DNA from: Eledone cirrhosa
Lineage: Eukaryota
DNA: 64,000 nucleotides
Assembly (NCBI GenBank): GCA_964016885.1
Contig: OZ024743.1
Coordinates: 306,528,001-306,592,000 of the forward strand
Direction: 5' to 3'
Position numbers and translations under genes: made by a program. The notes below the pieces were generated by a model that did not search any database, was not told the origin of the DNA, and saw only the letters and a program-made list of their open reading frames with translations. Positions within the stretch are counted from its first letter, which is position 1. Each line of letters begins with the position of its first letter. Of this stretch, positions 10,098-35,985 are shown in pieces.

Positions 10098-10365
10098 TGG
10101 CTTTGTGCAGTGCCTTTGCTCACTATAAAAGCTTCACGGCACAGGCATTGCTTTATATCTGGAGATCTCTCTGCACTTGTCGTCACATGGTACCATGGGC
10201 CCAGCACTATGTGTCAGTAATTGTCACAGGTATAGTGTTTGTACCAGAGTTTTCAAGTCGCTGGCTGGACTAAAATATCACACTCGTTCAGCGCATCAGT
10301 AGGGGTTCTCCTACATGGATATAAAGTAGTGGCCGTACTCGAAAACGAGTTGGCAGCCACCATGT
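10098..10365. repeat. ~265 bp dispersed repeat, copy 1 (copy 2 at 11551-11818)
   Basis: TGGCTTTGTGCAG...TTGGCAGCCACCATGTAT is nearly identical in both copies, and both end in (TA)n. Confidence 0.9.
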
Positions 10366-10535
10366 ATATATATATGTATATATATGAGAATTAGAACCCT
10401 GTAACTATTAAGCTCTAAGTATAAAGTACAAATAAATACTGAGCCGATTAACAATATATAGTAAGAAACACGAGGTGATGAATTCATCTTTCTGTGTGAA
10501 CGTTGGCAAATAGTGTTTGTGGCATTTAATCGCAA

Positions 10536-10613
10536 TCTCTCGCTGATGAAGCCCAGGATTATCTGTTACAAACACACTCAGGGCGAAACAGATTAGGGAT
10601 AATCTGTCCGAGA
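10536..10613 (+). ncRNA. Type I hammerhead ribozyme (copy 1)
   Basis: TCTCG-CTGATGA-A-GCCC..GGGC-GAAA-CAGATTA(GGGA)TAATCTG-TC^CGAGA: complete core, three stems and a GUC cleavage triplet. Confidence 0.92.
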
Positions 10614-11006
10614 CATATAATGGTTATTGAGGCGGTTTGTATTATTATGATAATATATTTTTATTTTCATTTTGTCATTCTGTCTGTTTCTTGGTTAAAT
10701 ATTTCAAGTATATGTGGTTTTTCAACCCTTGTAATTTTAGACACACGGTTTACTGTGTTTCTTACTATATATTGTTAATCGGCTCAGTATTTATTTGTAC
10801 TTTATACTTAGAGCTTAATAGTTACAGGGTTCTAATTCTCATATATATATTTCTGCTCCCTTACAAGTTGAGCTATTAAGTTGTGCGTGTTGGACTGTTA
10901 TTTCTGTTCAATACGCGCTTACCACGTTTGACTGGCGAAGCACGAGGTGATGAATTCATCTTTCTGTGTGAACGTTGGCAAATAGTGTTTGTGGCATTTA
11001 ATCGCA

Positions 11007-11088
11007 ATCTCTCGCTGATGAAGCCCAGGATTATCTGTTACAAACACACTCAGGGCGAAACAGATTAGGGATAATCTGTACGAGAGAT
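11007..11088 (+). ncRNA. Type I hammerhead ribozyme (copy 2)
   Basis: ATCTCTCG-CTGATGA..GAAA-CAGATTA(GGGA)TAATCTG-TA^CGAGAGAT: 8-bp stem I and a GUA triplet. Confidence 0.92.
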
Positions 11089-11205
11089 ATAATGGTTATT
11101 GAGGCGGTTTGTATTATTATGATAATATATTTTTATTTTCATTTTGTCATTCTCTCTATATATGTATATGTATATATGTATATATGTATATATGTATATA
11201 TATAT

Positions 11206-11814
11206 GTCAGGTCACCAGTTGGTGCTACTAGTAACATGTATCCCAGTACAACCTGTCTCATGGTCGGGTCGTTGGCGACTAAACTGACAACCCCACCAAG
11301 GTTTCTTGGTGAGGAGGGTGACTTTGGACATCCTGCAGGACAAAAAACAAAACCTGTCAAAGGGCAAAGGAGCTCTTAAGAGTCAATGGCCATCCAAAAA
11401 TCACCGAGAGAGATGACCCCTTAGCCTTTGTCAAGGCAGAATTCTAGGAGAAGGAAAACTCTGATATAACACCTGCAACCCTGATGGTATCCAATGATGT
11501 TGGCTTGTTCTTCTTTTTGGTAAATATCATCTTGGTTAAGAGAGTGGGACTGGCTTTGTGCAGTGCCTTTGCTCACTATAAAAGCTTCACGGCACAGGCA
11601 TTGCTTTATATCTGGAGATCTCTCTGCACTTGTCGTCACATGGTACCATGGGCCGAGCACTATGTGTCAGTAATTGTCACAAGTGTAGTGTTTGTACCAG
11701 AGTTTTCAAGTCGCTGGCTGGACTAAAAATTCACACTCGTTCAGCGCATCAGTAGGGGTTCTCCTACATGGATATAAAGTAGTGGCCGTACTCGAAAACG
11801 AGTTGGCAGCCACC

Positions 11815-11818
<4 letters not shown>
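11206..11818. mobile_element. ~610 bp non-coding interspersed element between TA tracts; its right 265 bp are duplicated at 10098-10365
   Basis: Sharp boundaries with (TA)n and a partial second copy nearby. Family not identified. Confidence 0.5.
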
Positions 11819-21601: not shown

Positions 21602-21640
21602 TGAACAAGTACTTTCATGCTTTCGCAATCTTCAGGTTCA
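21602..21640 (-). ncRNA. Minimal type I hammerhead in PLE 3' UTR
   Basis: TGAAC-CTGAAGA-T-TGC(GAAA)GCA-T-GAAA-GTAC-TT^GTTCA: GNRA-capped stem II and palindromic stem III AGTACT. Confidence 0.88.
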
Positions 21641-22015: not shown

Positions 22016-22840
22016 TTATTGTTCATTTAGCTTGGGTTTGAATTTATCAATAAAATTCTTTTCTTTGATTTTTCTCTTGATTTCACTTGGGCTGTGTAAT
22101 TTGTAGAATGGGAATATTATAAATATTCCCTGACCACATGTTGCCAGGTGACCGCTTAGGGGTATCTGACGGACATTTGGGTCTCTGATTTGTTGACGGT
22201 GTACCCGTGCACGTTCCGATAGTGCATTTCCAGTTTGACCGACATATAGTTCTTCACAATTCGGGCATTTAATGCAGTAAATTAGATTTCTGCTTTTGCA
22301 GTTCATATTTGCATTTGTGAATATTTTTCCAGTTTTTGTTTTCATATATTGACCGGCGTGTATGGATTGACATGTGCCGCATCGATTATCATTGCATTTA
22401 GATACAGTGAATGATTGGTCTTTGTTGTTAAGGTCAAACTTTGCTTTTGTTAGCAATTGCTTCAAATTTTTTGGCTGTCTTTTACTAAGAGTCAAAGATC
22501 GATCTGTGATTAAGCCTTTTAATTCATTACTTTGAGCAATGATCGGTAGGTTTGCTTTGGCAGTGTTGAAGATATTCTGGTGACATGGGTTGTGTGTCAT
22601 TATAAATGGTATGACCAGTTCTTGGTTTCTTCTTCTTTGGGTTGTTCTAAGTTGTTGTATAGGTATTTTTATAGCCCGCTGTATGCCATTTTCTATAAGT
22701 AGAGATGGGTATTTTTGTTTGAGCAAAAATTCTCTTAGTTCTGTTAGGCGTATCTTCTGGTATTCGTATCTTCTACAATGGTACAGATTCTTCTGGCTAG
22801 GCAGTATGGGATGTTGCGTTTTGTATGAGGTGGATGCAGT
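22016..22840 (-). pseudogene. 5'-truncated PLE ORF: RT thumb, Cys linker and GIY-YIG
   Basis: HPPHTKRNIPYCLARRI (frameshifted) then LLKQKYP..CNDNRCGTC..MNCKSRNLIYCIKCPNCEELYVGQT..KEKNFIDKFKPKLN. Confidence 0.88.
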
Positions 22841-23000
22841 GGCGGATTGGCCAGTTTGACCAATGGCAAGAGGGCCCTATGCAGCCCAAAGTAACATTGC
22901 AAAAGCCCACAGTAGCATTGCGGGGCCCACTGTAGTATTTTAGGGGCCAATGCTTTGCTTTCAGAAAATACCTCAAATCTAAGACAGAATAAATTTTTTT
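22837..23000. mobile_element. Probable hAT-type MITE end adjoining the PLE 5' truncation
   Basis: Starts CAGTGGCGGATT with internal GGGCCC motifs. Partner TIR not found. Confidence 0.3.
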
Positions 23001-25883: not shown

Positions 25884-25996
<113 letters not shown>

Positions 25997-28349
25997 ATAT
26001 TTGGGGAGGGTCATATTTGCGTAATATTGCCAGAATTAATAACAGAACACACTCACTGTTTGGTTGGTTTTCGCTTCTCGCTGTCTTTTATATATATATA
26101 TCTGTGATCTAACTTACTCGGTCCTCAATGTTGCCATTGACTGACCGGCGGTCAAAAATAATACAGATACAATATAGACAAACACATATATATATAGTTT
26201 ACATAAATCTTTCGTTGCACATCTGCAACATCGTCAGTGGTGTTATATTCATTGTTCCTCCTGTTGTGTTGTATGTCTACGCCATTTTTTTTTTGTTCAG
26301 TCTGTCTATATATTTATTTATTTATTTGCTTGTTTGTTTATCTTATTTTATTTTGTCTTCTTTGCGCATGCGTTTGCGTGTGTGTATAGTGTTATGTGTG
26401 ATGTGTGACTAGTGTGTATAGTGTTGTGTCTGCTGGGTGACTAGTGTGTGTTTATGTGCTTGTGTATGTATTTATTTATCTTATTTTATTTAATTTAATT
26501 TACTTATTTATTTATACTTCTCTTAGGTCAGTGTTGTTTGTTTGGGTGTTGTTGTTGTTCCACTCATTCTTTCTGTTTAGCTTTGGTCTTCTAATTTCTA
26601 TTTCACTGGCCTCTCTGATTTGCCTATCTGCTGGGTCATTCCTATGTTTAGATATTATTCTAATTTCTATGTTGTCTATGTTACCGTCATGATGTTGTCT
26701 AGCATGTTCGTATAGTACTGACCCGTTTTTTCGTCCTTTTAGTTCCCCCCAGTGTTGGTCTATCCTTTCACCTATGCTACGAGCTGTCTCACCTATGTAT
26801 GTTGTTGTCGTGTTTCTGCAAGTACCCTCTGTACATCTTATGCTATAGACTACGTTTCTAGTTTTACAGTTTATCCGGGGGTTCACCTTACATATGATAC
26901 ATTTCCTATTGGTACAGTGGGTTTTCTTAAAAGGGTAGGTTTTGCTGATCAGGGATTTTATGGTGGTTCCTGGCTTTTCTACCACCTTTATTTTTAAGTG
27001 GGTCTTTCTCAGGGCCTTTCTACACTGGTTAGCTAATTTCCCTCCAGGGGTGGCGTCCACAAACATGACACTCTGATATCTCTGGTTGTCGTACCATGAT
27101 GTGGCCTTCCCTATCTTATGTCTAGCCCTATCTAAGCTATTCCATGATTTGCTCCTGTATAGTGGGCAAATTCCTTTCATGTCCAGTTCTATGAGGGTCT
27201 TATACTTTTCCATGGCTCCTTCGTATACTCTGACTCTGTCTCTTTGGTTGTAGCCAGAGAACTGCATGCGGTTGATGAAGTGTTGGATGTGTCCTTCCAT
27301 TTCTGTTGGGTCGCACATCAACCGCATGCAGTTCTCTGGCTACAACCAAAGAGACAGAGTCAGAGTATACGAAGGAGCCATGGAAAAGTATAAGACCCTC
27401 ATAGAACTGGACATGAAAGGAATTTGCCCACTATACAGGAGCAAATCATGGAATAGCTTAGATAGGGCTAGACATAAGATAGGGAAGGCCACATCATGGT
27501 ACGACAACCAGAGATATCAGAGTGTCATGTTTGTGGACGCCACCCCTGGAGGGAAATTAGCTAACCAGTGTAGAAAGGCCCTGAGAAAGACCCACTTAAA
27601 AATAAAGGTGGTAGAAAAGCCAGGAACCACCATAAAATCCCTGATCAGCAAAACCTACCCTTTTAAGAAAACCCACTGTACCAATAGGAAATGTATCATA
27701 TGTAAGGTGAACCCCCGGATAAACTGTAAAACTAGAAACGTAGTCTATAGCATAAGATGTACAGAGGGTACTTGCAGAAACACGACAACAACATACATAG
27801 GTGAGACAGCTCGTAGCATAGGTGAAAGGATAGACCAACACTGGGGGGAACTAAAAGGACGAAAAAACGGGTCAGTACTATACGAACATGCTAGACAACA
27901 TCATGACGGTAACATAGACAACATAGAAATTAGAATAATATCTAAACATAGGAATGACCCAGCAGATAGGCAAATCAGAGAGGCCAGTGAAATAGAAATT
28001 AGAAGACCAAAGCTAAACAGAAAGAATGAGTGGAACAACAACAACACCCAAACAAACAACACTGACCTAAGAGAAGTATAAATAAATAAGTAAATTAAAT
28101 TAAATAAAATAAGATAAATAAATACATACACAAGCACATAAACACACACTAGTCACCCAGCAGACACAACACTATACACACTAGTCACACATCACACATA
28201 ACACTATACACACACGCAAACGCATGCGCAAAGAAGACAAAATAAAATAAGATAAACAAACAAGCAAATAAATAAATAAATATATAGACAGACTGAACAA
28301 AAAAAAAATGGCGTAGACATACAACACAACAGGAGGAACAATGAATATA

Positions 28350-28392
28350 ACACCACTGACGATGTTGCAGATGTGCAACGAAAGATTTATGT
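28350..28392 (+). ncRNA. Hammerhead-like core in the pLTR (identical copies at 32484-32526(+) and 26201-26243(-))
   Basis: CA-CTGACGA-T-GTTGCA(GATG)TGCAAC-GAAA-GATT-TA^TG. Strong stem II, wobble-palindromic stem III AGAUUU, but only a 2-bp stem I. Confidence 0.6.
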
Positions 28393-28578
28393 AAACTATA
28401 TATATATGTGTTTGTCTATATTGTATCTGTATTATTTTTGACCGCCGGTCAGTCAATGGCAACATTGAGGACCGAGTAAGTTAGATCACAGATATATATA
28501 TATAAAAGACAGCGAGAAGCGAAAACCAACCAAACAGTGAGTGTGTTCTGTTATTAATTCTGGCAATATTACGCAAAT

Positions 28579-30771
28579 ATGACCCTCCCCAAATATAACA
28601 ATATCTGTTTCGACACACGATTTCATATAAAAAACCTCGCAAAACTAATTCATCGCCGCTATGGCATTAGCTTGTGCCAAGCTGAAAGGTTATTGAAAGA
28701 CACTGTTTTCTGTTATATAAAAACTACAATAACAACAGAACAAATCCGCTTCTTAAAACACTGTGTTTCCTCCAAAACATACACAACAAACATATCAAAA
28801 CAAGTAAATAATTTATTATTGAACAAAACACAAGCTGAACGGCTAAAACACACAATAACAGTTAATATGAAAAGAACAACATACACAAAAGTCAACGCAC
28901 TCTACAGACAAAAACGCATCAACGGTAAGGAAATCCGAAATCTCATCACAGCAAACGAGAGAGATGACTTCATGAGCGTCATCCGACGCGAAACGAAATA
29001 TGCTCAAAACGAATGCTGTAGGCATTTCAAGAAGAAATTAGAATGGATGAATAAGAAAAAACTACAAGAAAGGAAAATCGAATATTCTCAAAAATACCCA
29101 GATAACATCGACAACATCCGTATGAGTGATGTAAAACTACCGGAAGAATTTACCAATGACCACACAGTAAATATCTATGGGAACACTTTAATCAGTGAAC
29201 AAGAACAACAAATCCTAAAGTTACCACCAAAATTTGCCATCTACAAAAAGATTAATCCTATGGAATGCAAAACGGAGCTGGAAAAGTGTTTCACAAAAAT
29301 ACGTTGGAATGCAAAGGTAAACAACAACAACAATAATAACGGTAGTAGTAATATAAACAATAACTCTGGGTATAGAAATAACAGCCATAACCATAACAAT
29401 GGCAGGAAAGTGAGAAATAGTGATAATGGTAATAATACTAGCGATAGACAGAACAACAACAACAACCACAATAATAATAATAATAGAAACGTTAACCACA
29501 GACACAGCAACAGTGACCACAGTAGTAATAACGGTAACAATACGAACAACAACAACAACAATAACCACAGTGGTAATAATGGAAATAGTACATGTAGCAA
29601 CATCAACAAAAACAAGAAACATAATAATAGTAACAACCACAATGGTAGAAATAGCAGTAACAACAACAACAATAACGGTGAAGTAAACAACAATACATCT
29701 AGCAATCATAACAATAATAATATTAATGCTAAGGATAGAAACAACAACAACCACCATGATAACAATAATAGCAACACACACAACTATGACGATAGAAATA
29801 ACGACAACCCCTTAGAGAAACTATTTTTCAACCCAGCTGACAAAACATATAAGATGGGTAATATCTATCCTACGAGGTTACCCTTTAATAAAAGAGTTTG
29901 CATACCACAACAAATAGATGACGAGACGGAGGCACAGTTCACCATAGCTAGAAATAAGATTAGACAAGTAGTAGACAGGTACACTATGAGACAGAGCAGA
30001 CCAGAGGCCCAACAACTTGGGATAAAACCTGTAGAAGGCTTGGTTAGCCTCAAGCAGCGCACAAGGGATGGTGAGGTAGTGTGTCTACCCACAGATAAGT
30101 CTGGTAGGATGTCAATAGATAGCATGCCGAACTACATCGAGGCAATGCAACCCCACATCACCAACACGAGCGAAGTTGCACAACTAACACACGATGGGAG
30201 AGAAAAAATCCTCAACGCTCACATGATGATGTGGACTGACATCCTAAAGCCAAGCAGACGCACTGCCAACAACTTCCAGGCGTCTAACAATGGCATACCA
30301 CCCTTGTATGGGCTCCGCAAAGACCACAAGACAGTCGACGACCCGACAATAGGACCACCAACAAGACCTGTATGCGGAGCTAATATAGCTAGCAACTACA
30401 GGATCTCCTACTTCCTCTCAATGGTTATACGCCCCATAATCAAGATGTCCCCAGATGTATGTGAAAGTACAGAGGACCTCCTCAGCAGAATCAGTGAGTG
30501 CAACAAAAACAGGAGCCTATCCAACTGCATAATAGGCAGCATGGATGTGGTGTCACTGTACCCATCCATTAACATTGATTTTGCTGTGAAAAGATGTGTG
30601 GAGATGATCATTGAGAGTGAGGTGGAGTTCTGCGACGTCGACACAGACGAACTGGGCCTCCTACTTAGACTTACCTACGACACTGACTACCTAGACAGCC
30701 ATGACCTTAGATGTTTCTGCCCTAGTAGACCTATAAGAGGTAGACCCCCCCACCATAACCTCAATGGCTAA
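28579..30771 (+). CDS. PLE polyprotein, N-terminal part: N-terminal domain, Asn-rich insert and RT fingers to motif A
   Basis: LKLPPKF, VCLPTDKSGRM, PPLYGLRKDHK, PPTRPVC, GSMDVVSLYPSI. Confidence 0.9.
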   Translation: MTLPKYNNICFDTRFHIKNLAKLIHRRYGISLCQAERLLKDTVFCYIKTTITTEQIRFLKHCVSSKTYTTNISKQVNNLLLNKTQAERLKHTITVNMKRTTYTKVNALYRQKRINGKEIRNLITANERDDFMSVIRRETKYAQNECCRHFKKKLEWMNKKKLQERKIEYSQKYPDNIDNIRMSDVKLPEEFTNDHTVNIYGNTLISEQEQQILKLPPKFAIYKKINPMECKTELEKCFTKIRWNAKVNNNNNNNGSSNINNNSGYRNNSHNHNNGRKVRNSDNGNNTSDRQNNNNNHNNNNNRNVNHRHSNSDHSSNNGNNTNNNNNNNHSGNNGNSTCSNINKNKKHNNSNNHNGRNSSNNNNNNGEVNNNTSSNHNNNNINAKDRNNNNHHDNNNSNTHNYDDRNNDNPLEKLFFNPADKTYKMGNIYPTRLPFNKRVCIPQQIDDETEAQFTIARNKIRQVVDRYTMRQSRPEAQQLGIKPVEGLVSLKQRTRDGEVVCLPTDKSGRMSIDSMPNYIEAMQPHITNTSEVAQLTHDGREKILNAHMMMWTDILKPSRRTANNFQASNNGIPPLYGLRKDHKTVDDPTIGPPTRPVCGANIASNYRISYFLSMVIRPIIKMSPDVCESTEDLLSRISECNKNRSLSNCIIGSMDVVSLYPSINIDFAVKRCVEMIIESEVEFCDVDTDELGLLLRLTYDTDYLDSHDLRCFCPSRPIRGRPPHHNLNG

Positions 30772-32215
30772 AAAGACTCCCATAGGAAGGTGGATTGGGT
30801 GGACCAAAGCTATACGGACCCCCCAAAACACTGATCAGGTAAGAAAAATGGTCGCACATGCAATAGGGGCTAGTATCAAAACTACCCTAAAGGGCCACAT
30901 ATTTAAGTTCAATGAGAAAATCTACACCCAAAATGAGGGAGCAGCCATCGGCGTCAGCATAGCTGGCGATGTTGCCAACCTTTTCATGGTATGGTGGGAA
31001 AGGAGACTTAAAGATCTCCTTAATGAAAGCTCCATAGACCTCATCATGTACTCTCGTTATGTAGACGATATCAATATAGTTATAAGAACACCCCCACTAG
31101 AGAGCACTAACAAGTTTGATTTAGAACGTAGCACGATGGAAAGCATCCAGCAGATAGCTAATTCCATACACCAGAGTATAACTGTAACTATAGACTTCCC
31201 TTCCAAACACCCTAACAATAGACTACCTGTATTAGACACAGAACTCTGGATCAACACTATAGACGAGAGAGCCCAAATTCTCCACTCACACTATGCTAAA
31301 CCCATGGCCTCCAAATACCTGATACTCAAAAACTCAGCAATGTCCAGTAGTGCTAAGTTTAATATTCTGATCGCAGATTTGGTACGAGTGATGAAGAATG
31401 TGTCCAGCATGTGCGACCCAACAGAAATGGAAGGACACATCCAACACTTCATCAACCGCATGCAGTTCTCTGGCTACAACCAAAGAGACAGAGTCAGAGT
31501 ATACGAAGGAGCCATGGAAAAGTATAAGACCCTCATAGAACTGGACATGAAAGGAATTTGCCCACTATACAGGAGCAAATCATGGAATAGCTTAGATAGG
31601 GCTAGACATAAGATAGGGAAGGCCACATCATGGTACGACAACCAGAGATATCAGAGTGTCATGTTTGTGGACGCCACCCCTGGAGGAAAATTAGCTAACC
31701 AGTGTAGAAAGGCCCTGAGAAAGACCCACTTAAAAATAAAGGTGGTAGAAAAGCCAGGAACCACCATAAAATCCCTGATCAGCAAAACCTACCCTTTTAA
31801 GAAAACCCACTGTACCAATAGGAAATGTATCATATGTAAGGTGAACCCCCGGATAAACTGTAAAACTAGAAACGTAGTCTATAGCATAAGATGTACAGAG
31901 GGTACTTGCAGAAACACGACAACAACATACATAGGTGAGACAGCTCGTAGCATAGGTGAAAGGATAGACCAACACTGGGGGGAACTAAAAGGACGAAAAA
32001 ACGGGTCAGTACTATACGAACATGCTAGACAACATCATGACGGTAACATAGACAACATAGAAATTAGAATAATATCTAAACATAGGAATGACCCAGCAGA
32101 TAGGCAAATCAGAGAGGCCAGTGAAATAGAAATTAGAAGACCAAAGCTAAACAGAAAGAATGAGTGGAACAACAACAACACCCAAACAAACAACACTGAC
32201 CTAAGAGAAGTATAA
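30764..32215 (+). CDS. PLE polyprotein, C-terminal part: RT motifs B/C, thumb and GIY-YIG endonuclease
   Basis: YTQNEGAAIG, YSRYVDD, LPVLD, CTNRKCIIC, VVYSIRC..TYIGETAR, RQIREA..PKLN. Joins the upstream ORF if one C of C7 (30745-30751) is removed. Confidence 0.93.
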   Translation: MAKKTPIGRWIGWTKAIRTPQNTDQVRKMVAHAIGASIKTTLKGHIFKFNEKIYTQNEGAAIGVSIAGDVANLFMVWWERRLKDLLNESSIDLIMYSRYVDDINIVIRTPPLESTNKFDLERSTMESIQQIANSIHQSITVTIDFPSKHPNNRLPVLDTELWINTIDERAQILHSHYAKPMASKYLILKNSAMSSSAKFNILIADLVRVMKNVSSMCDPTEMEGHIQHFINRMQFSGYNQRDRVRVYEGAMEKYKTLIELDMKGICPLYRSKSWNSLDRARHKIGKATSWYDNQRYQSVMFVDATPGGKLANQCRKALRKTHLKIKVVEKPGTTIKSLISKTYPFKKTHCTNRKCIICKVNPRINCKTRNVVYSIRCTEGTCRNTTTTYIGETARSIGERIDQHWGELKGRKNGSVLYEHARQHHDGNIDNIEIRIISKHRNDPADRQIREASEIEIRRPKLNRKNEWNNNNTQTNNTDLREV

Positions 32216-32793
32216 ATAAATAAGTAAATTAAATTAAATAAAATAAGATAAATAAATACATACACAAGCACATAAACACACACTAGTCACCCAGCAGACA
32301 CAACACTATACACACTAGTCACACATCACACATAACACTATACACACACGCAAACGCATGCGCAAAGAAGACAAAATAAAATAAGATAAACAAACAAGCA
32401 AATAAATAAATAAATATATAGACAGACTGAACAAAAAAAAAATGGCGTAGACATACAACACAACAGGAGGAACAATGAATATAACACCACTGACGATGTT
32501 GCAGATGTGCAACGAAAGATTTATGTAAACTATATATATATGTGTTTGTCTATATTGTATCTGTATTATTTTTGACCGCCGGTCAGTCAATGGCAACATT
32601 GAGGACCGAGTAAGTTAGATCACAGATATATATATATAAAAGACAGCGAGAAGCGAAAACCAACCAAACAGTGAGTGTGTTCTGTTATTAATTCTGGCAA
32701 TATTACGCAAATATGACCCTCCCCAAATATAACAATATCTGTTTCGACACACGATTTCATATAAAAAACCTCGCAAAACTAATTCATCGCCGC

Positions 32794-32824
<31 letters not shown>

Positions 32825-33543: not shown

Positions 33544-35536
33544 TTAAGGGTTCGATTTGTAGTGCGAAAACTTCTCTTTGAGTCTATGGTTACAATAAAT
33601 TGATCTCTCGATTTTATTGTTGAGTAACTTATTCTTCGAACTTAAGATGTGGAACAGCTCAAGGTCGCATAATCGACAGCTTCTCATACCACTCCGATAT
33701 GGGGGCGCGTTCGATAATTTGTTCCACTTCAGGGTGTATTGATGGTTACTTTCCCCTCAGTTGCCAGGTCTTGTTTGCAAGGGTAGTTACATAACGGTGC
33801 TGGGAATGTTTCATTGCGTAACGGTGTGTATACCAACGGGCTTTAAATATATTCCCAGTCGCTCCGATGTAATACCATTTCTGGTTGTCTGATTCCACTG
33901 TGCATTGGTAAACCAGGTTAGACTACATACATTCATTATGTAATGGACAGGTTTCAGGTAGGTAGCAGTTACAGTTCTTGTCATGGGCAACTTTGGCATT
34001 ATTTGTGGGCTGCGATGCCTGTACAAGTGTGTTACGTTTTGTTTGCCTATTAGCGGGTGGTTGTGTATTAGATATTCTGTTGTGTTCGGTGGTGATTGTA
34101 TTGTTATTGTTGTAAATTTGTGTTTTGGTGTTGTTATGTATCTTTTTAGCGTTAAGCATCTTAATGTGTGCCTCTATATTTGGTGCCGTGGAGTAAGATA
34201 GTCTAATATATTTAGTGTTAAGGATTTTGCTGTATCTATGTGAATCTGGAAAGTGCTTATTTATTATTCTAAAGAAGGTAGAGGGTAGGTTAGTACTAAT
34301 AGAGGTGTTAAATATGGGGTTATACCAAATATATTTTCTACTGCGTGACTTGTTTGATTTCGATGTTGTATTTCTATTTACCGTATAATTTGTAGTTCTA
34401 TGCGTAAGTGCGTGTGTGCGTGTGTTTCTGGAGTTTGTGTTATGCGTGTTCGTGTGCGCTTCACGGAAGCTTTCATCTATATATTCTACTCTATCTAAGT
34501 GGCCTGCCTTGTCTAATGCGGTATTGTAGTATTCTGCATGTTCTTCGAAGATTTGTCGGTTAGACGAGAGGCGGGAGATCCTAAGGGATATGCTGCGTGG
34601 AATGGATTTAATTATGGATAGTGGGTGGTTTGAGTTACAGTTGATGTATGCTAAGTTTTCATTAATCTTGTGAAAAGGTCTTATAAGTCCCGTATTTAGG
34701 TTAAGCGTCACGTCTAGAAAGTTAACTGTTTTAGTGCTATACTCATACGTTATGCTAAGGCCTAGTTTTCCGAGAGTCTTTCTAATATTCTTACGGAGTC
34801 TTTCTATGCTCTGGTTATTTAGGTTCTTAACTAGGAGAAGGGCGTCGTCTCTGTAGATTCCACCGTGAAGGTCGCTAAACTCACTTTGTAAACTATGGGC
34901 TATGTAAATACCTACTAAATCTGTGACTTGAGCCGAGTCGTTAGCCCCCATCGTGATGTCAAAGTTATTTAATCTATCCTTACGTTCCCAATAGGCGTTT
35001 TCAAATTTAATTATTGTTTTCCTAGCAGCTAATATGATTTTTATCTCGTCGTCTGTTATGTCAGGATTGGCTTTGGCGAATGCTAAGGCTTTATCCAAGG
35101 TGTTGGGGGATATAGATGAGTAATAATCGTTAATGTCAAATTGTATAAATTTAGATACTTCTTTGTTAGCTATATTGTTAAACCACTTAATTGTTTCGGT
35201 AGCGTTACCCCATAGTTTAATCACTAGTTTATTCTTCATTTGTGCTATCACTCTGTCTAATATATGTTTACTAATTTTCCCGATGTCCAATTTGGACGGG
35301 TATATAAGTCTAATTGTGGGGTTATAATCAAAATTTACCTTGTGGTCTTTGAGGTTAAATGTGGGGGTACATGGCCTAAGTGGCTCCGTTCTGTCGTCTA
35401 TTCCTAGGTGTTTGACTATACTGTGTGCCTCGTTGTTGATGTTTATCAGTGCCGCCTCATTTGTTTTTTTGTATTTCCTATGTAATTCCTTCCGTATGAA
35501 GCTATTGTATGTATTAACATCCATCGTGAACAACAA
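33544..35536 (-). pseudogene. PLE RT plus GIY-YIG with an in-frame TAG (33923) and a later frameshift
   Basis: LKDHK, FIQFDINDYYSSI, FDITMGANDSAQVTDLVG, GIYRDD, VNFLDV, CPL..C*SNLVYQC..YYIGAT..W, then CRLCDLE..LLN..IYCNHR in another frame. Confidence 0.9.
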
Positions 35537-35892
35537 TTATAATTGAGTGGCTGCTATTTGCAGTATAGCAATATAAGGTTGCACTTACCAATGAAACGGT
35601 CGTAAATACCTGGATAAAATCCTTTTCTAAACGCTTACCTGTGTTTTCTCTTTTATACTTTATACTCCAAGATTGAACGGAATTCTTACAAACTTGTGGA
35701 GTTACCCCTAACCGTACGTTGAAACCATCCTTGAAACTGGCTTTCTTAACCAAAAACTGGATCACAATAAGCAATGTTTTGCTTCTCTAACTATATATAT
35801 ATCAAAATTATGGGTGTCATGCCAGAAAGACATGCGCCATATCACCCGCAAAATAAGCTCTAAGATTCTAACGAGTAGGTCCGAGCATTTTA

Positions 35893-35980
35893 TAATAACT
35901 AGAGATTGATTAACATATAAATAAACAGGAATAATCACAGGAGATTATTCATGTTTATTTATATGTTAATCAATCTCTAG

Positions 35981-35985
<5 letters not shown>
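35893..35985. repeat. Fold-back hairpin abutting (TA)n
   Basis: ATAACTAGAGATTGATTAACATATAAATAAACA..TGTTTATTTATATGTTAATCAATCTCTAGTTAT. Confidence 0.85.

What the first reader, a model, noticed from the sequence alone, without database searches (positions are those of the whole stretch)
10381..11153. ORF-less twin-hammerhead mini-element that copies the Penelope architecture: candidate circular-RNA-producing retrozyme
Seen: two near-identical complete type I hammerheads whose cleavage sites (after 10608 and 11080) are exactly 472 nt apart inside a direct repeat. They are preceded by a 90-bp inverted copy of internal sequence, and the element sits in TA microsatellite. This is a miniature of the layout of the autonomous PLE at 25989-32795 (inverted arm plus tandem partial unit) with no coding capacity. 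Known: PLE pseudo-LTRs carry hammerheads, and non-LTR retrozymes of some metazoans release monomers that circularise. Inference: this is a non-autonomous family mobilised in trans by PLE RT/GIY-YIG through a 472-nt (circular) RNA. I do not recognise it as described for this lineage.
Basis: partly seen in the sequence, partly recalled or inferred. Interest (0 to 1): 0.9.

Follow-up and report, generated by a model that had tools for sequence, protein, structure and literature searches.

The report
Penelope-hijacking retrozyme with lockable hammerhead
A 472-base non-coding repeat with a hammerhead ribozyme motif is scattered in hundreds of young copies whose ends match the insertion pattern of Penelope-type jumping genes, so it is likely a parasite copied by their enzymes; its ribozyme is predicted to be held off by a conserved hairpin, and whether it cuts itself or forms RNA circles is untested.

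Summary
Confirmed: two type I hammerheads 472 nt apart, a 95-nt inverted arm and TA flanks. The unit belongs to a young dispersed family (358 exact stem-III copies) within a non-coding superfamily (2,408 copies of a shared tail motif). 71 of 73 3' ends fall at two fixed sites 77 nt apart, and 23 of 25 inverted copies carry one of each. This is the Penelope 'tail' signature and direct genomic evidence for mobilisation by Penelope-like element (PLE) machinery. No copy continues into its own ORF, so it is not a mere 3' UTR fragment. The kind is known: animal non-LTR retrozymes, proposed PLE derivatives. New here: a probable octopod host; a 7-bp helix III; and a 17-bp pairing between upstream sequence and loop II, kept with different sequence in sister families and predicted to lock the ribozyme (or act partly as a pseudoknot). 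Not shown: cleavage, circles, the autonomous partner. A hammerhead-less sister family spreads the same way, which weakens the circle model. The window's PLE shares layout, not sequence. The scan noted similar PLE-mobilised units in other genomes, but not this sequence.

The parts
10365..10380 (.). left (TA)n target microsatellite
   Evidence: sequence
10377..10471 (-). inverted arm = unit positions u147-241 in reverse; its outer end is the family's second fixed 3' end (E2)
10465..10608 (+). 5'-truncated upstream partial unit (u329-472)
10512..10531 (+). 'lock' strand X, predicted to pair with loop II of hammerhead 1 (second copy 10984-11003)
10536..10615 (+). type I hammerhead 1: stem I 10536-42 / 10609-15, core 10543-49, extra A 10550, stem II 10551-54 / 10581-84, 26-nt loop II, GAAA 10585-88, 7-bp stem III 10589-95 / 10600-06, cleavage predicted after 10608 (GUC)
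10609..11080 (+). 472-nt monomer between predicted cleavage sites (u1-472); folds better than shuffles, z -4.85
10743..10758 (+). small AC-rich hairpin just upstream of the first fixed end
10771..10777 (+). E1, first fixed 3' end of family copies (u163-169); inferred reverse-transcription start site 1
10774..10850 (+). 77-nt 'tail' between E1 and E2, with motifs shared by sister families (10782-87, 10808-14, 10822-29); candidate PLE-protein recognition signal
10837..10850 (+). E2, second fixed 3' end (u229-242, on the unit's own TA run); inferred reverse-transcription start site 2
11008..11087 (+). type I hammerhead 2, cleavage predicted after 11080 (GUA, private change from GUC)
11081..11153 (+). 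downstream partial unit u1-73, about 90 nt short of the expected E1 end (copy-specific truncation)
11154..11205 (.). right TA-rich microsatellite

Best explanation
This is one insertion of a young, dispersed, non-coding 472-nt repeat family whose copies end at two fixed sites in TA microsatellites, and it is likely a non-LTR retrozyme copied in trans by a Penelope-like reverse transcriptase/GIY-YIG endonuclease, likely from a unit-length circular RNA whose hammerhead is predicted to be held off by a local hairpin. Steps: (1) A dimer-like copy is transcribed (inferred; promoter unknown). (2) The hammerheads, which have a stable 7-bp helix III, occasionally cut to release the 472-nt monomer, and a host ligase closes it (inferred from coral, mussel and axolotl retrozymes). 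(3) Strand X pairs with loop II over about 17 bp; this cannot coexist with stem II and would protect the circle (predicted, about 4 kcal/mol more stable than the active fold). (4) A PLE protein binds the tail region, nicks (TA)n and primes cDNA at E2 on one target strand and at E1 on the other (end positions shown; enzyme inferred). (5) RT runs through the intact ribozyme junction and stops at variable points, giving 5'-truncated tandems and head-to-head inverted copies (pattern shown). My odds: trans-mobilised non-autonomous PLE-type element about 0.9; circle as the usual template about 0.5; lock as an off-switch about 0.55.
For: Family: 141 matches from 40 scored of 1321 candidates, 88-100% identical, on many contigs, with arrays up to 5.5 units; 358 exact stem-III copies with 0 in the reversed control; 902 with a looser pattern. 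Ends (48 non-redundant insertions): 71 of 73 3' ends at E1 or E2; 23 of 25 inverted copies have exactly one E1 and one E2; the 23 direct copies split 11 E1 / 12 E2; 53 of 73 3' ends versus 7 of 23 5' ends run straight into (TA)4+. In the anole PLE the tail is the stretch between two RT start sites and both target strands are cut and extended (PMC11167929). 64 of 75 arms cross a cleavage site and none starts exactly at u1 (the sample is enriched for hammerhead-bearing arms). Repeats within one insertion share subfamily alleles: 272 concordant vs 13 discordant, about 109 expected at random; 10 of the 13 lie at the terminal TA boundary. Hammerhead helices are kept across relatives down to about 70% identity, with the PLE-type extra base between positions 9 and 10.1 (PMC4209133). 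X:loop II duplex beats shuffles in families A 0/500, C 1/500, E 2/500, F-L218 4/500 and F-L207 0/500, and fails to in the 5 other hammerhead-like motifs tested (45-345/500). No copy examined continues into a same-strand PLE ORF as its own body.
Against: There is no experiment and no RNA evidence for cleavage or circles. Family G shares the tail motifs and the tandem/inverted anatomy, yet has no CUGANGA core in 2 of 2 tandem units examined. Hammerhead mutants do not affect PLE insertion in vitro (PMC11167929), and 8 of 9 Xenopus retrozyme dimers did not cleave in vitro. Autonomous 4.1-kb PLEs here also form tandems, so tandems do not need circles. The L002 array has alternating unit variants, which points to local duplication. 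The lock forms before the 3' half of the ribozyme is made, so how monomers are released is unexplained. The duplex is not significant in L208 (69/500). 14 of 75 arm 5' ends fall in u1-40 (about 6 expected if uniform), which may mean some run-off near cut ends. No autonomous partner was found; unit vs window pLTR alignment is at chance (128/300 shuffles).
Confidence: 0.55

Rival explanations
1. Same non-autonomous PLE parasite, but copied from uncut linear multimeric or read-through transcripts, with tandems regenerated by template jumps or local duplication; the hammerhead is mostly off and serves a side role.
For: Hammerhead-less sister family G; hammerhead not needed for PLE insertion in vitro; predicted lock in the precursor; autonomous PLE tandems; alternating units in L002.
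Against: The catalytic core and all three helices are kept through complete sequence turnover in families A-F, implying selection for cleavage. No site shows a fixed difference between upstream and downstream repeats. Characterised animal retrozymes accumulate as circles.
Confidence: 0.35
2. On the ribozyme only (compatible with either model above): the X:loop II pairing is an activating pseudoknot between stem I and loop II rather than an off-switch.
For: About 40% of hammerheads use a pseudoknot to align stems I and II (PMC3088659 passages); the proximal 5 bp next to stem I have suitable geometry; ViennaRNA cannot model pseudoknots.
Against: The conserved duplex covers about 17 of 26 loop nucleotides, too long to leave stem II closed (structural inference); the tested pseudoknots in that paper are 4-6 bp.
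Confidence: 0.3
3. The unit is only the pseudo-LTR of an unseen autonomous PLE, and the copies are its 5'-truncated stumps.
For: The genome search scores only the top candidates, so a rare full-length parent could be missed; other scan notes found such cases in other genomes (unchecked).
Against: After E2 the sequence returns directly to the next unit, not to an ORF, in every dimer or array seen. Several diverged subfamilies, each non-coding, have their own unit lengths (about 450-570 nt). The PLE ORFs found joined to 5' ends belong to three different families.
Confidence: 0.05
4. Satellite DNA spread by DNA-level recombination, with an incidental hammerhead.
For: Some arrays show local duplication (L002).
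Against: Dispersed copies with two fixed 3' ends, scattered 5' ends and strict E1/E2 pairing in inverted copies.
Confidence: 0.02

Closest known systems
Non-LTR retrozymes of animals (Cervera & de la Pena 2020, PMC7229834; Li, Clavereau & Pollet 2026, 10.64898/2026.07.22.740005)
   Same: Non-coding, low-GC tandem units with one type I hammerhead each; dimers to multimers; co-occurrence with autonomous PLEs; PLE mobilisation proposed.
   Different: The unit (472 nt) is above the ~170-400 nt of the tested circles, though within Li's 51-972 bp. Helix III is 7 bp, not 1-2 bp palindromic. The hammerhead is predicted to be blocked by a conserved local duplex, whereas most animal retrozyme circles were predicted to leave it free (some mussel ones excepted). 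The insertion ends give a two-start-site PLE signature that the parts I read of these papers do not analyse. Expression and circles are untested here.
EN+ Penelope-like elements and their pLTR/tail anatomy (Craig et al. 2021, PMC8557442; Frangieh et al. 2024, PMC11167929)
   Same: Partial tandems, adjacent inverted 5'-truncated copy, optional tail between two RT start sites, (TA)n targets, extra base between hammerhead positions 9 and 10.1.
   Different: No ORF; tail 77 nt instead of 30-40; full, monomer-competent hammerhead instead of minimal dimer-dependent ones; both start sites sit on or next to UA runs; no sequence link to a partner found.
Non-autonomous Chlamys elements such as MRC1 (PMC8557442)
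   Same: ORF-less PLE derivatives making pLTRs and head-to-tail multicopy insertions.
   Different: Those usually resemble their autonomous family at the 3' end, and most Chlamys elements lack canonical hammerheads; green algae, different clade.
Plant LTR retrozymes and hammerhead viroids (as discussed in PMC7229834)
   Same: Ribozyme blocked by a complementary strand in the monomer.
   Different: Type III hammerheads and Ty3/Gypsy mobilisation (LTR retrozymes) or RNA-RNA replication (viroids); here type I, PLE-type ends, and a short local lock 5' of the ribozyme.

Membership tests
Non-LTR retrozyme | Tandem units each with a complete type I hammerhead (at least two consecutive) | tested here: met
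Non-LTR retrozyme | No protein coding | tested here: met
   (52-58 aa microsatellite-like frames inside the unit); no same-strand PLE ORF as body in the loci read
Non-LTR retrozyme | Multicopy, dispersed, no LTR features | tested here: met
Non-LTR retrozyme | Self-cleavage releasing unit-length RNA | not testable with these tools
   only folding predictions, which favour an inactive fold in context
Non-LTR retrozyme | Accumulation as circular RNA | tested here: inconclusive
   contigs only, run kind unknown, and the circle junction equals the genomic tandem junction
Non-autonomous PLE | Fixed 3' ends with optional tail, variable 5' truncation | tested here: met
   71 of 73 3' ends at E1/E2; 75 scattered 5' ends
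Non-autonomous PLE | Partial tandems plus adjacent inverted copy; microsatellite target | tested here: met
   25 of 48 inverted, 23 of them E1+E2; 53 of 73 3' ends into (TA)n
Non-autonomous PLE | Sequence similarity to the pLTR or 3' end of an autonomous PLE family | tested here: inconclusive
   not met for the window's p28/p30 family, and the tail motif is absent at the two ORF starts tested; most PLE families in the genome were not examined
Autonomous EN+ PLE | RT + GIY-YIG ORF | tested here: not met
Rfam hammerhead families (Hammerhead_1, _3, HH9, HH10 and others) | Score at or above gathering threshold | tested here: not met
   Rfam also misses the hammerheads of families E and F, so this reflects the long loop II, not absence of the motif

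The most novel reading that the evidence does not exclude
A superfamily of 450-570-nt non-coding RNA parasites in this genome shares one cis 'address label' (the tail between two RT start sites) that recruits a PLE protein. Most members replicate through viroid-like circles whose full-length hammerhead is gated by a covarying X:loop II switch that the PLE protein or refolding releases, while family G has dropped the hammerhead or replaced it with an unrecognised ribozyme. That would give a natural, minimal system to test what PLE hammerheads are for and whether a PLE RT does rolling-circle target-primed reverse transcription.
Probability: 0.25. Interest if true: 0.78.

Novelty: new variant of a known kind. 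Interest (0 to 1): 0.52.

Why it matters
How animal retrozymes move, and what hammerheads do for Penelope-like elements, are open questions; the published case for PLE mobilisation rests on co-occurrence and pLTR similarity. Here hundreds of young copies record the insertion chemistry itself: two start sites, one per end of inverted copies. Sister families point to a short shared cis signal, a conserved ribozyme switch, and a natural hammerhead-less control. This makes the PLE-retrozyme link and the circle hypothesis directly testable with short RNAs. The class itself is not new.

Tried and rejected
Rfam: 0 matches at gathering over 64 kb; only microsatellite or chance matches at E<=10 and on 4 sister loci. 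Sequencing runs: no RNA holder listed; laying 4 runs of unknown kind and X4 alone at 80% gave contigs only, which cannot show ends, strand or circles. Partner search: the window PLE pLTR shares a 12-nt motif with the unit near E1, but alignment scores are at chance (A 128/300, B 18/300 shuffles); rejected as evidence. PLE fragments near copies belong to several families, and direct 5' junctions involve three different ones (L005/L096, L023, L180); read as shared TA targeting or stray template switches. A tail-motif match upstream of the Hydra-like ORF in the window first looked like the partner but proved to be a stump of non-coding family G. An apparent pile-up of 5' ends at the cleavage site vanished when arms were aligned to a natural multimer. 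The long L002 array is not evidence for rolling circles (alternating units). One search failed on string length and one search used a mis-registered structure; only one search is valid. The sigma-70 promoter scan is irrelevant to an animal and was used only for hairpin coordinates. Literature searches for this lineage (octopus or cephalopod with retrozyme, hammerhead or ribozyme) and for tail plus non-autonomous anatomy (0 papers) found no description; the library lacks most subscription papers and Repbase/Dfam were not available. Scan look-ups by sequence and by place were empty.

Full report
OBSERVATION. Two type I hammerhead motifs have cores at 10543 and 11015 and predicted cleavage after 10608 and 11080, inside a 221-nt direct repeat with 4 mismatches; a 95-nt perfect inverted arm precedes them and TA runs flank the element. 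They were the only 2 hits of a strict two-strand scan of the window, and each folds as a hammerhead in isolation. Rfam misses them, as it misses related motifs in sister families. On 23 hand-picked relatives the 18 helix pairs are kept in 98.1% of cells with 4 pairs changed on both sides; much of the double change comes from one distant sequence, and rows were found through stem-III patterns. Coordinates below use u1 = 10609 to u472 = 11080.

THE FAMILY. The genome is about 3.0 Gb. The best named homolog of the neighbouring PLE protein is from Octopus vulgaris at 66% identity, so the host is probably an octopod (inference). The unit search gave 141 matches from 40 scored of 1321 candidates. 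An exact 27-nt stem-III pattern occurs 358 times (control 0) and a looser one 902 times. Subfamilies at about 68-90% identity have the same layout. More distant families E (542-545 nt, 2015 candidates) and F have full type I hammerheads with different stems and share short tail motifs; one such motif has 2,408 exact copies (control 0). No copy examined has a PLE ORF as its own body. After the second fixed end, dimers return to the next unit. This rejects the 3' UTR-fragment reading as far as sampled loci allow; the search scores only top candidates.

INSERTION ANATOMY. In 48 non-redundant family-A insertions (clusters under 250 nt, under 95% identity or touching a locus edge were left out), 71 of 73 3' ends lie at E1 (u163-169) or E2 (u229-242). 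Of 25 inverted insertions 23 have exactly one of each; the exceptions are the window copy (ends at u73-77) and L076. The 23 direct insertions split 11 E1 and 12 E2. 53 of 73 3' ends and 7 of 23 5' ends run straight into (TA)4 or more. Craig et al. (PMC8557442; passages and section 11) describe partial tandems, an adjacent inverted copy, an optional 30-40-bp tail and (TA)n targets for PLEs. Frangieh et al. (PMC11167929; parts 1-2 of 4) show that the tail is the stretch between two RT start sites and that both target strands are cut and extended. The pattern here fits that chemistry with a 77-nt tail; the window's own PLE has a 56-nt tail. Arm 5' ends are scattered: none of 75 starts exactly at u1, 64 of 75 cross a cleavage site, and 14 lie in u1-40 (sample enriched for hammerhead-bearing arms). 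RT therefore usually reads through an intact junction, on a circle or on uncut multimer. Within an insertion, repeats share subfamily alleles (40 elements, 17 sites: 272 concordant, 13 discordant, about 109 expected; intra-element divergence 1.07% vs 2.25% between elements). This fits a monomer template but also jumps between identical RNAs.

THE RIBOZYME. It has the extra base between positions 9 and 10.1 typical of PLE hammerheads, but a 7-bp helix III where most animal type I motifs have 1-2 bp and need dimerisation (PMC4209133 passages). In context, stems I and II are predicted at probability near 0 (one short-context exception at 0.84), because the 20 nt upstream of stem I pair with the 26-nt loop II. 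This duplex beats shuffles in families A, C, E and two F copies (0, 1, 2, 4 and 0 of 500), not in L208 (69 of 500), and not in 5 unrelated hammerhead-like motifs from the flanks. Own-family pairing equals or exceeds cross-family pairing among A/C, E and F. The locked fold is 4.2 kcal/mol below the active fold for a typical copy, and removing X restores the active fold as the minimum. Cervera & de la Pena (PMC7229834; passages and parts 3-4 of 6; supplement not read, and its mussel folds may show something similar) state that most animal retrozyme circles leave the ribozyme free, unlike plant retrozymes and viroids. A partial pseudoknot role is a real alternative (PMC3088659 passages).

AGAINST THE CIRCLE. 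Family G (stump in this window at 35803-35981; tandem units of 546 and 568 nt; 1931 candidates) shares the tail motifs and anatomy but has no hammerhead core on either strand in 2 of 2 units. Hammerhead mutants do not affect PLE insertion in vitro. Li et al. (10.64898/2026.07.22.740005; parts 1-3 of 5; supplements not available) saw cleavage in 1 of 9 dimers. Autonomous PLEs here also form tandems. Public runs did not help: contigs only, kind not on record.

PARTNER. The window PLE at 25989-32795 has the same layout and belongs to a very young family (150 of 150 scored matches 100% identical over 130 aa, many in ~1217-aa open frames), but this copy is frameshifted and its pLTR does not align to the unit above chance. 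At least four other PLE fragments lie in the window. None could be tied to the unit, so the partner is unidentified.

COMPARISON AND VERDICT. It works like, and meets every sequence-testable criterion of, an animal non-LTR retrozyme and a non-autonomous PLE; cleavage and circularity are untested and similarity to a partner is unshown. Li et al. sampled 31 vertebrates, 3 insects and 1 coral; Cervera tested coral, mussel and axolotl. My searches found no cephalopod retrozyme and no description of the end signature or the lock in retrozymes, within a library that lacks most subscription papers. Family labels A-G and E1, E2, X are mine. Clade names for the window PLEs rest on linker motifs compared, not on a tree. 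Verdict: new variant of a known kind; interest 0.52.

Noticed in passing
window 35803-35981 (minus strand); L240, L241, L257: Palindromic stump of sister family G: same tail motifs, tandem units 546-568 nt, 1931 candidates, no hammerhead core and no Rfam ribozyme match; possibly ribozyme-free or carrying an unknown ribozyme.
   Followed up: partly
L021:230-805; L173-L202: Family E, a second retrozyme family (542-545-nt unit, GUA hammerhead with covarying stem I, 2015 candidates) with the same two-end anatomy and lock duplex.
   Followed up: partly
window 25989-32795: C-terminal-EN PLE with CX4CX2C linker and a long Asn-rich insert; very young family with many intact ~1217-aa copies and 4.1-kb tandem arrays; this copy frameshifted near 30737-30771; hammerhead-like core at 32490, 28356 and 26237(-); the 56-nt tail lies within the first 27 codons.
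   Followed up: partly
window 21602-21640 (minus strand): Minimal hammerhead with palindromic 4-nt loop III and 5-bp stem I in the 3' UTR of the PLE fragment at 22016-22876.
   Followed up: no
window 33923-35536 (minus strand): RT fragment with a CxCX5C linker, matching the Hydra clade description; close copies (about 92% aa) elsewhere in the genome.
   Followed up: partly
run X4 laid on window 10472-11125: Run of unknown kind, another sample: one unbranched 287-nt contig of a sister subfamily at depth 246 spans the cleavage site, and a depth-6 family-A contig has four T>C changes absent from 88-100 genomic alignment columns per site. If X4 is RNA this would suggest one dominant expressed variant and A-to-I editing of antisense RNA; not established.
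   Followed up: partly
L148, L166, L013 vs window 10589-10606: In one subfamily the stem III hairpin is the exact reverse complement of the window's (loop inverted), as expected from a template-switch inversion within a palindrome.
   Followed up: no
window 10098-10364 and 11205-11817: Two copies (98% identical) of an unrelated dispersed repeat ending in TA flank the element, which sits in the TA tail of the shorter copy; found in several other loci; not identified.
   Followed up: no
L023/L076, L180, L005, L096: Retrozyme 5' ends joined directly to pieces of three different autonomous PLE families; template-switch chimeras or nested insertions.
   Followed up: partly
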